IMG/VR virus record: IMGVR_UViG_3300030438_000300
Reading direction: 5' to 3' (one strand)
Length of the DNA: 30,806 nucleotides
DNA from: a virus
Taxonomy: Duplodnaviria > Heunggongvirae > Uroviricota > Caudoviricetes
Shown: positions 9,765 to 13,974 of the stretch, one piece after another
Layout: each line of letters opens with the position of its first letter
Position numbering within the stretch: the stretch's first letter is position 1
Position numbers and translations under genes: made by a program
Notes under the pieces: model-generated
What the model was told of the DNA's origin: nothing
What the model saw: only the letters and a program-made list of their open reading frames with translations
Databases searched by the model: none

Positions 9765-9974
9765 CCCATCTCAATCCCTTCAATACCAGAAAGGAAGCAT
9801 AGAGCGGGCTTCAATGAGCACAGAGTGGATTCTATCTAGGTTTAGCGCATACAGAAGATTGCCGGTAAAGGGCATGCCAAGCAAGTCGATGCTGCATATG
9901 CAAAAGAATGCGCGCTGGAAGGTATGGCGAAAACACAGGTTATGTGGCTGAAAGAGGGGATTATTAAGGCGTGA
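9757..9974 (+). pseudogene. Mosaic-junction remnant: ninF-like 5' end joined to the 3' end of a ybcO-like (DUF1364) gene
   Basis: Frame-1 ORF starts [18 protein letters not shown], like the lambda NinF N-terminus as recalled, then diverges. Frame 0 from about 9846 to stop 9972-9974 reads ...[32 protein letters not shown], like the C-terminus of DLP12 YbcO as recalled, with no upstream start and a TAG at 9843-9845. Confidence 0.45.
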
Positions 9975-10333
9975 ATACCTACAGCATCACATTACCCTGG
10001 CCTCCGAGCAATAATCGCTATTACCGCCATAATCGCGGGCGCACGCACGTCAGCGCAGAGGGGCAGGCATACCGCGATAACGTCGCCAGAATCATTAAAA
10101 ACGCAATGCTGGATATCGGCCTGGCTATCCCTGTGAAAATCCGCATTGAGTGCCACATGCCGGATCGCCGTCGCCGTGACCTGGATAATCTGCAAAAAGT
10201 CGCTTTTGACGCACTCACTAAAGCAGGTTTCTGGCTGGATGATGCTCAGGTCGTTGATTACCGCGTTGTGAAGATGCCTGTTACCAAAGGTGGGAGGCTG
10301 GAACTGACCATCACCGAAATGGGGAATGAATGA
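9971..10333 (+). CDS. rusA: Holliday junction resolvase RusA
   Basis: 120-aa product (GTG start) [52 protein letters not shown]...[12 protein letters not shown] is essentially E. coli DLP12 RusA as recalled. Confidence 0.92.
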
Positions 10334-10470: not shown

Positions 10471-10555
10471 AGTCAGAGATAACAATCAACTAATACTGTT
10501 TTGTTGATTTTTGCTTGTAATTGGCGTTCTGGTCTGATTTTTGTGGAGTAAGTTG

Positions 10556-10939
10556 ATGCGTGATATTCAGATGGTTCTTGAACGTTGGGGAGCGTGGGCG
10601 GCTAATAATCATGAAGATGTGACCTGGTCGTCCATTGCCGCCGGTTTTAAGGGATTAATTCCTTCAAAAGTAAAATCTCGCCCGCAATGTTGTGACGATG
10701 ACGCGATGATCATTTGCGGGTGCATGGCCCGTCTGAAAAAGAACAACAGCGATTTGCACGATTTATTAGTAGATTATTATGTAGTCGGTATGACATTCAT
10801 GTCACTGGCAGGTAAGCATTGCTGCTCTGATGGTTATATCGGGAAAAGGTTACAGAAGGCTGAGGGTATAATTGAAGGGATGTTAATGGCATTAGATATC
10901 CGGTTAGAGATGGATATCGTTGTTAATAACTCTAATTAA
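10556..10939 (+). CDS. quuD: Late-gene antiterminator Q (phage 82/DLP12 QuuD type)
   Basis: 127-aa product [33 protein letters not shown]...[18 protein letters not shown]... matches QuuD as recalled. GGAG RBS 8 nt upstream of ATG 10556. The ORF track begins at the upstream TTG 10541. Confidence 0.9.
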
Positions 10940-11128
10940 TATGCCAGTTGTTTACTAAAAGTTATTAAAAATGGGGCGTTGCAACGCCCCCAAAAATAAA
11001 GGGTAATATATAACAGAAGGTTTATATAGTTAGAAGCAAGGTTGTGCTCCTAAAGGAAGTGGCTTGAGGGAGCCACTTATATGTTGGGGAGGCAAAGCCT
11101 CCCGCAACATATCTTTTTCGTAATCAGA

Positions 11129-12211
11129 TTAGAACTGATACACCAGACCTACAGCGACGATGTCGTCGGTATCAATACCAGCTGTTTTGGTAAACTTACT
11201 ATCGTCAATTAAGTTGATTTTGTAATCAACAAAAGTGGACATGTTTTTATTAAAGTAGTAAGTAGCACCGACATCGACATACTTGACTAAGTCTCGGTCA
11301 CCATGAACACCAAGGTCTTTACCTTTTGACTGAAGGTAAGCAACAGATGGTCGCAGACCGAAGTCAAACTGATATTGTGCTACTGCTTCAAAGTTTTGTG
11401 CTTTGTTTGCAATATGGTTATTACCAAAAACGGTCATATTCTGAGTTTCAGAATATGTGGTAGCCAGATAGATATTGTTCGCATCATATTTCAGGCCTGC
11501 AGCCCATACTTCCGCATTTTTGCCGGAGGCATTGAATTTGCTCTTACCATAGGCGACCTGACCGTCAGTGCGATCTGATTTAGCATAGGTTGCACCCACG
11601 CCGAATCCTTCATACTCATAAGTAGTGGAGAAACCGAAACCATCACCATTGGCTTCAGTTACGTCAGTGCGGTCATTTTTACCCTGATACTGAGCAGCAA
11701 AGTTCAGGCCATCGACCAGACCAAAGAAGTCGTTGTTACGATAGGTTGCAACACCAGTGGTGCGACCAGTCATGAACACATCTGTTTGGGTCCAGGTATC
11801 GCCACCGAATTCTGGCAGAACGTCAGTCCACGCACCGATGTCGTATGCTACACCGTAGTTACGGCCGTAATCGATTGAGCCGTAGTCACCGAATTTCAGG
11901 CCTGCAAATGCAAGACGGGTTTTGTCTTTGGAGGAACCTTGAGATTCAGCGCGGTTGCCTTTGAATTCATATTCCCACTGACCGAAACCAGTCAGTTGAT
12001 CGTTGATTTGGGTTTCACCTTTGAAGCCAAGACGGGCATAAGTAGTATCACCATCATCTGCATCATTAGAGGAGAAGTAGTGCTTAGCATTAACTTTCCC
12101 GTACAGATCCAGCTTGTTACTGTCTTTATTATAAATTTCAGCTGCCTGAGCAGACATCGCCATCAGTACTGATGCAGCTACAGCAGAAATTGCCACTGTT
12201 AATTTTTTCAT
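11129..12211 (-). CDS. nmpC: Outer membrane general porin (OmpC/NmpC family), apparently intact
   Basis: 360-aa product with signal peptide [30 protein letters not shown]..., beta-barrel porin-like sequence and C-terminal ...VGLVYQF. Lies between Q and the lysis genes on the opposite strand, as nmpC does in DLP12. Confidence 0.9.
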
Positions 12212-12640
12212 CGTGAGCCCTTTTTTTTGAACTATTATTAAAAAATGATGTCACTGCGCGATAAATATTCATCTAATCAATGTGATTATTTCAAGATGTA
12301 AGTTTTGGTTTCTCGTTTGATTTGTGAAGTAGATCTCTATTTTTATCTGAACTTTTTTCTATCGAATCCTATTCATGGCTCTTGGCTGAATAAAAATAAA
12401 TCTATTAGCCAATTTATATTAACGGCTATTATTTATAAGTGCTCTATAATTTGAAGGTTCAATTTAAACCAGCTAAAAATAACACTGGAAATTATTTGTT
12501 GGTTATTTGTTGAGATTTGCTTATGTATTTGTAGCGGTGTTTTCAATACTCGGTAGCATTCTCGCAAATATCATTTAGTGGTTTACGTACGTAAAAAATT
12601 GGTTATGCTGTTAAGAGTGGTTACTTCGTCACACAGCTTA

Positions 12641-12672
12641 AACCCGCCGTCGAGCGGGTTTTTCCATTTTTT
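12641..12672 (+). terminator. Strong plus-strand intrinsic terminator upstream of the lysis cassette (candidate tR')
   Basis: AACCCGCCGTCGAGCGGGTTTTTCCATTTTTT: GC-rich hairpin followed by a T-run. The reverse complement has no U-tract, so it acts on plus-strand transcripts only. Confidence 0.55.
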
Positions 12673-12800
12673 GAGTCTCGATATTAGCTGATAACCCAAT
12701 ACCTGAGTTATTCACTGACTCCGAGTCTGTTACGTTTCTGCTTTTTTGCGATACGTTGTATTCCCTCAATTTACACCCGCTTTGTCTGCGAGGTGGGGTT

Positions 12801-13016
12801 ATGAAATCCATGGATAAGTTAACAACGGGTGTCGCCTATGGCACCTCAGCAGGTAGTGCCGGGTACTGGTTTTTACAGCTGCTAGATAAAGTCACGCCCT
12901 CACAGTGGGCGGCAATTGGAGTGCTGGGTAGCCTGGTATTTGGCCTGCTGACGTACCTGACAAACCTTTATTTCAAGATTAAAGAAGACAAGCGTAAGGC
13001 TGCACGGGGAGAGTAA
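12801..13016 (+). CDS. essD: Holin (EssD-like, dual-start motif)
   Basis: 71-aa product [81 protein letters not shown]1-K-S-M4 dual-start arrangement. Confidence 0.85.
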
Positions 13017-13020
13017 TTCA

Positions 13021-13371
13021 ATGACTCAAAACTATGAACTGATTGTGAAAGGGATCCGCAATTTTGAGAATAAAGTTACGGTAACTTTAGCGTTACGGGA
13101 CAAAAAACGCTTTGACGGTGAAATTTTTGACCTGGACATCTCGCTGGACCGTGTTGAAGGTGCCGCGCTGGAGTTTTATGAGGCAGCAGCCAGAATGAGC
13201 ATCAGACAGGTCTTCCTGGATGTTGCTGCCGGGTTATGTGAAGGGGATGAGCAGTCGCCGGAAAAGCGCCCCGTAATTTTAGAGGCGCAGAATGTATGGA
13301 TAACCTACAAAGGAAAGCTACCGGGAAGAATTACTGGTTCTCTGAAGACTCCTCCGGAATCACAACCTTAA
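13021..13371 (+). CDS. Hypothetical protein embedded in the lysis cassette (between holin and endolysin)
   Basis: 116-aa ORF starting 4 nt after the holin stop; no motif recognised. By position it is analogous to ydfR (DUF1327) in Qin (recalled; unverified). Confidence 0.6.
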   Translation: MTQNYELIVKGIRNFENKVTVTLALRDKKRFDGEIFDLDISLDRVEGAALEFYEAAARMSIRQVFLDVAAGLCEGDEQSPEKRPVILEAQNVWITYKGKLPGRITGSLKTPPESQP

Positions 13372-13434: not shown

Positions 13435-13974
13435 ATGAACGCAAAAATCAGATACGGCCTGTCGGCTGCCGTTCTGGCACTGATTGCCGTCGGTGCGCCC
13501 GCGCCTGATATTCTCGACCAGTTTCTGGATGAAAAAGAAGGTAACCACACAACGACATACCGCGATGGGTCCGGCATCTGGACCATCTGTCGGGGTGCCA
13601 CGATAGTGGATGGAAAACCCGTTTTTCCCGGTATGAAACTGTCGAAGGAAAAATGCGACCAGGTCAACGCCATTGAGCGTGATAAGGCGCTGGCATGGGT
13701 GGAGCGCAATATTAAAGTACTACTGACCGAACCACAAAAAGCGGGTATAGCGTCATTCTGTCCCTATAACATTGGNNNNNNNNNNNNNNNNNNNNNNNNN
13801 NNNNNNNNNNNNNNNNNNNNNNNNNNNGGTGATCGTAAGGGCGCATGCGAGGCGATTCGCTGGTGGATAAAAGATGGTGGGCGCGATTGCCGCATACGTT
13901 CAAATAACTGCTATGGACAGGTTATTCGTCGTGACCAGGAAAGCGCATTAGCCTGTTGGGGGATAGAGCAGTGA
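13435..13974 (+). CDS. rrrD: SAR endolysin (lysozyme, GH24 family; RrrD-like), interrupted by an ambiguous-base run
   Basis: [56 protein letters not shown]... with N-terminal signal-anchor, matching DLP12 RrrD as recalled. Contains the 52-nt N run at 13776-13827; the frame is retained across it. Confidence 0.85.
13776..13827. other. Run of 52 ambiguous bases (N): sequencing/assembly gap or masking
   Basis: Literal n characters in the sequence, inside the endolysin ORF. Confidence 1.

What the first reader, a model, noticed from the sequence alone, without database searches (positions are those of the whole stretch)
12641..12672. Strong plus-strand terminator just upstream of the holin: where are pR' and tR'?
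A GC-rich hairpin with a long T-run lies 130 bp upstream of the holin start on the late-gene strand. Downstream of Q (10940-11128) I find only imperfect hairpins (GGGGCGTTGCAACGCCCC and GGGAGGCAAAGCCTCCC) and no clear promoter or terminator pair. Either this terminator is the Q-antiterminated tR' of a transcript starting near Q and crossing the porin antisense, or a second late promoter exists in the 12212-12640 AT-rich region.
Basis: seen in the sequence. Interest (0 to 1): 0.45.

Follow-up and report, generated by a model that had tools for sequence, protein, structure and literature searches.

The report
Late-gene terminator beside displaced Q promoter
The hairpin is real and is the ordinary "stop sign" that a lambda-like prophage puts just after its late promoter. 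That promoter lies 24 bases upstream of the hairpin, not next to the Q gene, because a porin gene cassette has been inserted between Q and its target.

Summary
The hairpin (stem-loop 12640-12661, T-rich tail to 12672) is confirmed, but it is moderate rather than strong: 5 G-C and 3 A-U pairs, about -11.5 kcal/mol, and an interrupted T-run. The window is a DLP12 / phage 434 / PA-2-type late region, identical here to E. coli K-12.

Window 12581-12663 is homologous to the stretch immediately 3' of Q in Shiga-toxin phages. Their PR' start site is mapped by dRNA-seq and aligns with window A12616. A K-12 Cappable-seq start site falls on exactly that base. So pR' is here: -35 TTTACG 12582-87, -10 TATGCT 12604-09, +1 12616. 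The hairpin lies at +25 to +46, giving a leader of about 50 nt, as in phage 21.

Q (10556-10939, Q21/Q933W family, 79% identical to the VT2-Sakai (933W-type) Q) is separated from pR' by a 1.67-kb reverse-oriented porin cassette. Of 108 related loci with a Q gene upstream, 79 have some insert at this junction.

"A promoter in the AT-rich region" is supported, and a second, stronger start site lies at 12245.

Caveats: the homologous hairpin in Stx phages is partly read through, and the PA-2 allele weakens the stem.

This is known biology and of low interest. The side observation worth noting is a palindrome at -34 to -21 that co-varies with Q subtype, a candidate Q-binding element.

The parts
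10556..10939 (+). Q antiterminator gene (quuD-type, 127 aa)
   Evidence: PF06530, E = 1e-53. Related to the solved Q21 structures 6P18 and 6JNX. 79% identical to the Q of VT2-Sakai (933W-type), 52% to the phage 1720a-02 Q, 30% to Q21.
10973..10990 (-). Minus-strand terminator-like hairpin downstream of the porin gene
   Evidence: Perfect 7-bp stem. The T-run follows only on the minus strand.
11079..11120 (+). Bulged 15-bp hairpin followed by CTTTTTCG: terminator-like on the + strand between Q and the 3' end of the porin gene
   Evidence: Fold of 11040-11125 gives -36.5 kcal/mol, z = -4.3. Function is inferred.
11129..12211 (-). Porin gene (lc / nmpC type): reverse-oriented cargo between Q and pR'
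   Evidence: PF00267, E = 2e-151. Annotated lc in PA-2 and nmpC in K-12 and phage 434.
12233..12245 (+). Upstream + strand promoter: -10 TATTAT 12233-12238, start site A12245
   Evidence: K-12 Cappable-seq start site at 576081 (U00096.2), read score 90.2, mapped through alignment A4. It overlaps the sigma-E-like GAACTA-16-TCACT at 12229-12255, near the published essDp +1 of about 12260 deduced from primer positions.
12582..12595 (.). 14-bp perfect palindrome TTTACGTACGTAAA at -34 to -21: candidate Q-binding element, overlapping the -35 hexamer TTTACG (12582-12587)
   Evidence: Unique in the window. The palindrome sequence co-varies with the Q protein cluster across 102 loci. Binding by Q is inferred, not shown.
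12604..12609 (+). pR' -10 hexamer TATGCT
   Evidence: Aligned with TATCAT of the 933W-type promoter, which is annotated 'Promoter' in phi345 and flagged by the scan in VT2-Sakai. A at position 2 and T at position 6 are kept in all four variants read in alignment A1.
12616..12616 (+). pR' transcription start site (A)
   Evidence: Aligns with the Sakai PR' start site: L005 A736, fixed by the 258-nt length to the T-tract end and by the GU|AUU cut at +173. Equals the K-12 Cappable-seq start site 576452 (U00096.2) = 577229 (NC_000913.3).
12612..12632 (+). Most conserved block TAAGAGTGGTTACTTCGTCAC spanning the start site. It holds the candidate sigma-dependent pause elements (AAGAGT at -3 to +3, or TACTTC at +7 to +12) and a small 5' hairpin (+2 to +17).
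   Evidence: TAAGAGTGGTTAC is invariant in alignment A1 across phages whose flanks have diverged; the rest of the block varies at a few positions. The small hairpin appears. Its role is not resolved.
12640..12672 (+). The finding: promoter-proximal intrinsic terminator (tR' equivalent). Stem-loop at +25 to +46, T-rich tail to +57.
   Evidence: The homologous hairpin is annotated 'Terminator' in phi345. Phage 21 has its terminator at +3 to +50.
12801..13016 (+). S21-type holin/antiholin (essD): first late gene downstream
   Evidence: PF04971, E = 2e-35. Annotated essD in E. coli genomes.

Best explanation
The hairpin is the promoter-proximal intrinsic terminator (tR' equivalent) of a Q-dependent late transcription unit of the Q933W/DLP12 branch of the Q21 family.

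RNA polymerase with sigma-70 starts at pR' (-35 TTTACG 12582-87, -10 TATGCT 12604-09, +1 A12616). Without Q, most of it stops at the hairpin (+25 to +46, U-rich tail), releasing a leader of about 50 nt. The holin, endolysin, spanin and structural genes therefore stay largely silent.

Q is encoded 1.67 kb upstream (10556-10939). When it is made, it acts in trans. It binds next to the promoter (the candidate site is the palindrome TTTACGTACGTAAA at -34 to -21), loads onto polymerase paused early in the leader, and makes it read through the hairpin.

The porin gene, with its own terminators and AT-rich control region (about 10920-12580), is a reverse-oriented cargo cassette inserted between Q and pR'.

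**Shown:** the homology, the position of the start site, and the presence and conservation of the hairpin.

**Inferred:** Q binding at the palindrome, the pause element, the efficiency of termination, and Q-dependent read-through at this site.
For: 1. **Homology to Stx-phage PR'.** Window 12581-12663 matches the stretch immediately 3' of Q in 282 Stx-phage records. In alignment A1 the -10, the block TAAGAGTGGTTAC and the hairpin stem are conserved, while the loop varies. The phi345 record labels the same two elements Promoter and Terminator.
2. **Start site from Sakai data.** Sy et al. 2020 mapped the Sakai PR' start by dRNA-seq, a 258-nt transcript end by Term-seq, and an RNase E cut GU|AUU at +173. 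On the VT2-Sakai sequence both anchors fit only A736, which aligns with window A12616.
3. **Start site from K-12 data.** The window is identical to K-12 across this stretch. K-12 Cappable-seq lists a + strand start at 576452 (U00096.2), which is 577229 in NC_000913.3 and window 12616 exactly.
4. **Same layout in phage 21.** The phage 21 record annotates pR', the Q-binding element, the start site, the pause element and a terminator at +3 to +50. It folds at -20 kcal/mol.
5. **Q family.** Q is PF06530, 79% identical to the Q of VT2-Sakai (933W-type).
6. **Q and pR' are often separated.** Of 108 related loci with a Q upstream, 29 have Q within 80 bp of the core and 79 have a 0.6-2.9 kb insert, 36 of them the porin. 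Phage 434 carries the porin arrangement, even with an IS5 inside it.
7. **Palindrome tracks Q subtype.** Each Q cluster has its own palindrome at the same position, whether Q is adjacent or split from pR'.
8. **The hairpin is conserved.** All 55 leader variants keep a hairpin plus T-rich tail, and divergent members use different stems (CCTCGC/GCGGGG, CCCTGCC/GGCGGGG). Only 0-2 of 100 shuffles match them (6 of 100 for the weakest).
9. **No other candidates.** There is no second copy of the core or the palindrome in the window. No other plausible terminator lies between 12672 and the holin.
Against: - **Read-through in Stx phages.** In the Sakai phages a 258-nt RNA from the same start site exists. 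The homologous first hairpin, which has an even better U7 tail, is therefore read through by part of the polymerase. There, a second terminator that this window lacks is the one called tR'.
- **Weakened allele.** The PA-2-type allele (16 of the loci sampled) has a G-to-T mismatch in the stem, giving dG -5.3.
- **Weak promoter signal.** The K-12 Cappable-seq signal at pR' is low (read score 1.7), against 90 for the upstream start at 12245.
- **Different published promoter.** Published work on DLP12 places the RpoE- and Q-responsive promoter essDp near 12260, not at 12616.
- **No clear pause element.** No -10-like pause element can be assigned with confidence.
- **No 3'-end data.** No 3'-end mapping for this site was found.
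- **Linkage.** Co-variation of Q and the palindrome could partly reflect linkage rather than function.
Confidence: 0.8

Rival explanations
1. The late promoter on which Q acts is the upstream one: the published RpoE-dependent essDp near 12260, and/or the strong sigma-70-type start at 12245. The hairpin is then an attenuator about 400 nt into a long 5' UTR. The 12616 start would be a minor, irrelevant start.
For: Pasqua et al. 2021 cite Q-type antiterminator and RpoE control of the DLP12 lysis operon. Their promoter fragment is numbered -121 to +650. The primers map to window 12139 and about 12924, putting +1 near 12260, next to a sigma-E-like GAACTA-16-TCACT. K-12 Cappable-seq shows a strong + strand start at 12245, read score 90, against 1.7 at 12616.
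Against: - This region belongs to the porin cassette. It is absent from Stx phages, whose Q is 79% identical and whose PR' start site is the homologue of 12616.
- No copy of the palindrome or of the conserved core lies near 12229-12260.
- Short terminated RNAs of about 50 nt may be under-counted by Cappable-seq, so the low score is weak evidence.
- The two promoters are not mutually exclusive. Transcripts from 12245 would simply meet the same terminator.
Confidence: 0.12
2. A Q-modified transcript starts close to the Q gene, runs antisense through the porin gene, and the hairpin is its distant tR'.
For: In Stx phages and phage 21, pR' does lie directly after Q. K-12 Cappable-seq lists a + strand start inside the 3' part of Q, at about window 10783, read score 9.3. 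The promoter scan also flags 10753-10780.
Against: - There is no pR' core or palindrome near Q.
- No + strand start is listed between the Q stop and the porin.
- A + strand hairpin followed by a U-run at 11079-11120 stands in the way.
- Homology to the 933W-type Q region stops after codon about 121 and resumes only at 12581.
Confidence: 0.04
3. The hairpin is conserved for a reason other than termination. It could be a pause, Q-loading or RNA-stability element of the leader, and it may terminate little in vivo.
For: The homologous hairpin in the Sakai phages lies inside the 258-nt StxS precursor. The PA-2 allele carries a stem mismatch. The T-run here is interrupted.
Against: - Divergent family members replace the stem by other G+C-rich stems and always keep a T-rich tail, which is the signature of intrinsic terminators rather than of a sequence-specific site.
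- Phage 21 has an experimentally based terminator at the same place.
- There is no other terminator before the holin. Unrestrained transcription of a lysis cassette from a constitutive promoter would be harmful.
Confidence: 0.08

Closest known systems
Phage 21 late regulatory cassette (Q21, pR'21, Q-binding element, pause element, tR'21)
   Same: - Q belongs to the same Pfam family, PF06530.
- A sigma-70 promoter is followed within about 50 nt by an intrinsic terminator, then by an S21-type pinholin and a SAR endolysin.
- The leader RNA is about 50 nt.
   Different: - Q is only 30% identical.
- The Q21 binding element is a direct repeat (ATTGAGCA/AATGAGCA at -27 to -12). Here the candidate is a 14-bp palindrome at -34 to -21.
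- In phage 21 Q abuts pR'. Here 1.67 kb of porin cassette intervenes.
- The phage 21 hairpin starts at +3, this one at +25.
Stx-phage (933W / Sakai Sp5, Sp15) PR' and the StxS precursor RNA
   Same: - This is the true homologue: Q is 79% identical.
- The promoter, start site, conserved initial transcribed block and first hairpin all align.
- The start site is mapped by dRNA-seq.
   Different: - In Stx phages Q overlaps the promoter. A further 200 nt and a second terminator follow, and the functional 74-nt StxS sRNA comes from that extra part.
- The window has no homologue of that part. Its leader corresponds only to about the first 50 nt of StxS-L.
Lambda pR' - 6S RNA - tR'
   Same: The logic is the same: a constitutive late promoter, an early sigma-dependent pause, a terminator, and Q-mediated read-through (established knowledge).
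   Different: - Lambda Q is a different, non-homologous family (PF03589).
- The lambda leader is 194 nt.
- Q is adjacent to pR'.
DLP12 essDp as published (RpoE-dependent, Q-responsive)
   Same: It is the same locus. The window is identical to K-12 over 12564-12737 and differs only by a 16-bp indel further on.
   Different: The published +1 deduced from primer positions is near 12260, 355 nt upstream of the pR' homologue. The original papers could not be read.

Membership tests
Q-dependent late-gene antitermination cassette, Q21/Q933W family | An antiterminator gene of Pfam PF06530 upstream on the same strand | tested here: met
   E = 1e-53; match to the Q21 structures; 79% identical to the Q of VT2-Sakai, 933W-type.
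Q-dependent late-gene antitermination cassette, Q21/Q933W family | A sigma-70 late promoter (pR') with a mapped start site | tested here: met
   Hexamers TTTACG-16-TATGCT. The start site aligns with the Sakai dRNA-seq start and equals the K-12 Cappable-seq start 576452.
Q-dependent late-gene antitermination cassette, Q21/Q933W family | A Q-binding element between or overlapping the -35 and -10 | tested here: inconclusive
   The palindrome at -34 to -21 co-varies with the Q cluster. Binding is untested, and linkage is not excluded.
Q-dependent late-gene antitermination cassette, Q21/Q933W family | A sigma-dependent pause element (-10-like) in the initial transcribed region | tested here: inconclusive
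   Candidates are AAGAGT (-3 to +3) and TACTTC (+7 to +12; TACATT in 933W), read. Neither is compelling.
Q-dependent late-gene antitermination cassette, Q21/Q933W family | An intrinsic terminator between pR' and the late genes | tested here: met
Q-dependent late-gene antitermination cassette, Q21/Q933W family | Q-dependent read-through of that terminator | not testable with these tools
   This needs in vitro transcription or reporter assays. Only secondary citations of Q control of the DLP12 lysis genes are available.
Intrinsic (Rho-independent) terminator | A G+C-rich stem-loop immediately followed by a U-rich tract | tested here: met
   An 8-bp stem with 5 G-C pairs, a 6-nt loop, and the tail UUUUUCCAUUUUUU. 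dG is -11.5 kcal/mol. The quality is moderate.
Intrinsic (Rho-independent) terminator | RNA 3' ends at the U-tract in vivo or in vitro | not tested
   No entry in the Term-seq supplement searched. The homologue in the Sakai phages is at least partly read through.
StxS small RNA | The 74-nt 3' fragment with the RpoS-activating seed, ending at the distal tR' | tested here: not met
   The window has no homologue of +52 to +258 of StxS-L. The best match is 18 nt, E = 0.21.

The most novel reading that the evidence does not exclude
Antiterminators of the Q933W/DLP12 branch may recognise a short perfect palindrome that overlaps the -35 hexamer (here TTTACGTACGTAAA). Q21, by contrast, binds a direct repeat. 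At least six Q specificity classes each have their own palindrome, yet all share one invariant initial transcribed block.

Because Q finds this site in trans, the Q-pR' junction has become a hot spot for reverse-oriented cargo, including porins, a KAP NTPase and Kiwa-like genes.

On this reading the published sigma-E essDp would not be the Q-loading site, and the promoter-proximal hairpin would be a leaky single gate that explains basal expression of the DLP12 lysis genes.
Probability: 0.4. Interest if true: 0.45.

Novelty: already known. Interest (0 to 1): 0.2.

Why it matters
They form one compact module of about 90 bp directly upstream of the holin, and the porin is cargo inserted between Q and its target.

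This is textbook Q antitermination, and the sequence is identical to E. coli K-12 DLP12 and phage 434, so it changes nothing fundamental.

Its practical value is for annotation. The phage 434, PA-2 and DLP12 records reached here carry no pR'/tR' features. The promoter used in DLP12 studies (near 12260) is not the homologue of the start-site-mapped Stx-phage PR'.

The palindrome that co-varies with Q subtype gives a testable candidate for the unknown Q-binding element of the medically relevant Q933W type.

Tried and rejected
- **Rfam.** A scan of 10500-13100 at E <= 1 gave only a sub-threshold Trp_leader match (20.8 bits against a gathering score of 41; E = 0.5) over 12545-12667. This is a chance match driven by the terminator hairpin.
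- **RNAalifold.** On a MAFFT alignment of 20 leader variants it did not recover the terminator, because hairpins at shifted positions were mis-registered. It returned only the small +2 to +17 hairpin, whose sequence was fixed by my own search pattern and so carries no independent weight. I relied instead on per-sequence hairpin scans with shuffle controls.
- **3'-end and start-site tables.** The Term-seq supplement of Adams 2021 has no essD entry and no 57727x/57728x coordinates. The SMRT-Cappable-seq supplement has none either.
- **Papers not held.** Toba 2013, Rueggeberg 2015, Plunkett 1999 and Thomason 2015 could not be read. The published essDp position is therefore deduced only from primers in Pasqua 2021.
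- **PA-2 'CRP binding site'.** The 1986 PA-2 record annotates a CRP site at the position of window 12616-12636. The TCACA half-site is not kept in 933W (CCACG), and the block is the conserved start of the pR' leader. I regard the CRP label as unlikely, but did not test it.
- **Minus-strand readings.** The minus-strand ORF 12638-12811 (57 aa) overlapping the hairpin has no support. On the minus strand the hairpin is followed by only TTTAAGC, so it is not a minus-strand terminator.
- **tRNA genes.** Phage 21 and 933W carry tRNA genes after tR'. The window has none.

Full report
**What is there.** The + strand at 12640-12661 reads AAACCCGC-CGTCGA-GCGGGTTT, followed by TTCCATTTTTT up to 12672. It ends 129 nt before the ATG (12801) of an S21-type holin (PF04971). 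The hairpin has 5 G-C and 3 A-U pairs and a dG of about -11.5 kcal/mol. The T-run is interrupted: T5, then CCA, then T6.

Judged by pattern alone, the site is not above chance. There are 4 terminator-like sites in 4 kb against 3.6 +/- 2.0 in shuffles, and the fold z-score is -2.0. If a stable hairpin with a T-rich tail is required, 0 of 100 dinucleotide shuffles of the 75-nt leader match it. The decisive support comes from conservation, described below.

**Context.** The window is a lambdoid prophage late region of the DLP12 / phage 434 / PA-2 type.
- rusA lies at 9971-10333.
- Q lies at 10556-10939 (PF06530, the Q21/Q933W family).
- A porin gene lies on the minus strand at 11129-12211 (PF00267).
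- These are followed by the holin, a DUF1327 ORF, a SAR endolysin and the spanins.
- The 599 bp between the porin and the holin are found in 2665 of 5426 complete E. coli genomes, always in front of essD. They are also found in phages PA-2 and 434 and many others.
- Over 12564-12737 the window is identical to K-12 DLP12 and to phage 434.

**Where pR' is.** A sensitive search with 12540-12800 found about 280 Stx-phage records. They match only window 12581-12663, and always at the very end of or just after their Q gene. One such record (phi345) annotates a Promoter (TTTACG-16-TATCAT) and a Terminator exactly on the aligned elements. The consensus scan flags the same pair in VT2-Sakai.

In alignment A1 three features are conserved:
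- the -10 hexamer, with A at position 2 and T at position 6;
- an invariant block TAAGAGTGGTTAC;
- the hairpin stem.

The hairpin loop and the flanks vary.

Sy et al. 2020 mapped three features of the Sakai phages: the PR' start by dRNA-seq, the end of a 258-nt RNA by Term-seq, and an RNase E cut GU|AUU at +173. On the VT2-Sakai sequence both anchors (T-tract end at 993, GTATT at 907-911) fit only a start at A736. That base aligns with window A12616.

Independently, the K-12 Cappable-seq start-site list (Ettwiller 2016) contains a + strand start at 576452 in U00096.2 coordinates. With the 777-bp offset to NC_000913.3, this is 577229, which is window 12616 to the base. The offset comes from my own knowledge of the two versions. 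It agrees with essD at 577398 against the 576621 that I remember for the older version.

pR' is therefore:
- -35 TTTACG at 12582-87;
- a 16-nt spacer;
- -10 TATGCT at 12604-09;
- +1 at A12616.

The hairpin lies at +25 to +46, with U-rich sequence to +57.

**Comparison with phage 21.** The curated phage 21 record annotates the following:
- the -35 element;
- a Q-binding element (ATTGAGCA/AATGAGCA);
- the -10 element;
- the start site;
- a pause element at +2 to +8;
- a terminator at +3 to +50, citing Guo et al. 1991.

That leader folds into a -20 kcal/mol hairpin followed by U7. A leader of about 50 nt ending in a promoter-proximal terminator is thus the characterised design in this Q family. 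The window has the same design with a different sequence. Its Q is 30% identical to Q21 and 79% identical to the Q of VT2-Sakai (933W-type).

**The porin is cargo between Q and pR'.** Protein similarity to the 933W-type Q ends after the motif RLEMD, about codon 121. DNA homology resumes at 12581.

I scanned viral contigs for the conserved core and obtained 120 loci. Together with the loci already fetched and the window, 130 sequences were analysed, and 108 of them have a recognisable Q upstream.
- In 29 of them Q ends within 80 bp of the core.
- In 79 there is an insert of 0.6-2.9 kb.
- In 36 of those the insert is the porin.
- The others carry mostly minus-strand genes, such as a KAP NTPase, a KwaB-like protein with a membrane partner, NA37-like pairs and a hydrolase.
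- SfII has two unrelated minus-strand genes there.

Phage 434, a plaque-forming phage, carries the porin arrangement with an extra IS5. So Q evidently works from 1.7-2.9 kb away. That is expected for a protein that finds a DNA site in trans.

**Candidate Q-binding element.** The -35 hexamer is part of a perfect 14-bp palindrome, TTTACGTACGTAAA (12582-12595, -34 to -21). It is unique in the window. Across 102 loci, each cluster of Q proteins has its own palindrome at this position, whether Q is adjacent or split from pR':

| Q type | Palindrome |
|---|---|
| Window / 933W | TTTACG(T/A)(A/T)CGTAAA |
| 1720a-02 | GCGGTCCGC |
| SfII | GCGTACGC |
| Fourth cluster | TGTTATAACA |
| Fifth cluster | TGGAATTCCA |
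| Sixth cluster | ATTCGTTACGAAT |

Both halves change together. This is what a recognition site would do, and it supports the view that this promoter is the Q target. Binding is not shown, however, and linkage could contribute. The pause element is unresolved: AAGAGT at -3 to +3 or TACTTC at +7 to +12 are the only -10-like candidates.

**The hairpin across the family.** All 55 distinct leader variants have a hairpin with a T-rich tail, most beginning at +25 to +37 (the scan's spans, which sometimes add flanking pairing, run +11 to +66), with dG from -4.7 to -17.6. Divergent members use other stems at shifted positions: CCTCGC/GCGGGG, CCCTGCC/GGCGGGG and GGCCTCG/CGGGGCT. For these, 0-2 of 100 shuffles do as well, or 6 of 100 for the weakest. 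Keeping the structure and the T-tail while the sequence changes is the signature of an intrinsic terminator.

**Caveats.**
1. In the Sakai phages the 258-nt StxS precursor starts at the same PR' and contains the homologous hairpin with U7. That hairpin therefore does not stop all polymerases. A second terminator, absent from this window, is what those authors call tR'. In the window no other plausible terminator precedes the holin. The hairpin is a single and probably leaky gate, which would fit the reported basal role of the DLP12 lysis genes.
2. The PA-2 allele has a mismatch in the stem, giving dG -5.3.
3. The Cappable-seq signal at 12616 is weak (read score 1.7). A 50-nt product may be under-sampled.
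4. I found no 3'-end data for this site.

**Other promoters and the published essDp.** The same K-12 list shows a strong + strand start at 576081 (read score 90). This is window A12245, preceded by TATTAT at 12233-38.

Pasqua et al. 2021 cite RpoE and Q control of the operon. They number their promoter fragment -121 to +650 after Rueggeberg 2015. Their primers map to 12139 and about 12924, which puts that +1 near 12260, beside a sigma-E-like GAACTA-16-TCACT.

So the AT-rich region, which is the control region of the porin cassette (GC 0.28), does contain further + strand promoters. Their transcripts must also pass the hairpin. It holds no palindrome or core, and it is absent from the Stx phages that have the closely related Q. 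I therefore do not think Q loads there. I could not read the original papers.

**Near Q.** GGGGCGTTGCAACGCCCC (10973-10990) has a T-run only on the minus strand, so it is a porin terminator. 11079-11112 is a 15-bp bulged hairpin followed by CTTTTTCG on the + strand. K-12 has a + strand start inside Q, at about 10783, but none between the Q stop and the porin. Nothing supports a Q-modified transcript starting near Q.

**Verdict.** This is an ordinary, already understood kind of element: the promoter-proximal terminator of a Q-dependent late operon. Its promoter sits immediately upstream, and a porin cassette separates the module from Q.

Noticed in passing
window 12582-12595 (and the same position in L003-L130): A perfect 14-bp palindrome, TTTACGTACGTAAA, overlaps the -35 hexamer. 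In 102 related loci, each of about six Q protein clusters has its own palindrome at this position. Q21, by contrast, uses a direct repeat. This is a candidate Q-binding element for the Q933W/DLP12 type.
   Followed up: partly
window 12233-12245: K-12 Cappable-seq shows a strong + strand start (read score 90) at the base equivalent to A12245, preceded by TATTAT. It lies in the porin control region and points toward the holin. It overlaps a sigma-E-like GAACTA-16-TCACT close to the published essDp +1 of about 12260.
   Followed up: partly
window 10920-12580; L010-L130: The junction between Q and pR' is an insertion hot spot. 79 of 108 loci carry 0.6-2.9 kb there, mostly minus-strand cargo: the porin, a KAP NTPase, a KwaB-like protein with a membrane partner, NA37-like pairs and an alpha/beta hydrolase.
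   Followed up: partly
window 11079-11120: A 15-bp bulged hairpin followed by CTTTTTCG on the + strand lies between the Q stop and the 3' end of the porin gene. It is probably a terminator shielding the porin from antisense transcription coming out of Q.
   Followed up: partly
window ~10783: K-12 Cappable-seq lists a + strand start (read score 9.3) inside the 3' part of the Q gene, near the promoter-like site at 10753-10780.
   Followed up: no
L002 (PA-2) and 15 other loci, position equivalent to window 12656: The PA-2-type allele has a G-to-T change in the 3' arm of the hairpin (GCTGG). This cuts dG from -11.5 to -5.3 kcal/mol, yet PA-2 is a viable phage.
   Followed up: partly
L005 (VT2-Sakai) 759-786 versus 964-993: In the Stx phages the homologous first hairpin (U7 tail) lies at +24 to +51 of the 258-nt StxS precursor. 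The paper discusses only the distal terminator as tR'. The first one must be partly read through.
   Followed up: partly
window 12738-12753: A 16-bp indel, CTGCTTTTTTGCGATA, is present in the window and in PA-2 but absent from K-12 DLP12 and phage 434. It lies in the leader between the terminator and the holin.
   Followed up: no
window 13021-13371 and 13776-13827: A DUF1327 ORF (116 aa) sits between the holin and the endolysin, where K-12, phage 434 and phage 21 have none. A run of 52 N interrupts the SAR endolysin gene.
   Followed up: no
L002 1730-1750 = window 12616-12636: The 1986 PA-2 GenBank record labels the conserved start of the pR' leader as a CRP binding site. The TCACA half-site is not conserved in 933W.
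   Followed up: no
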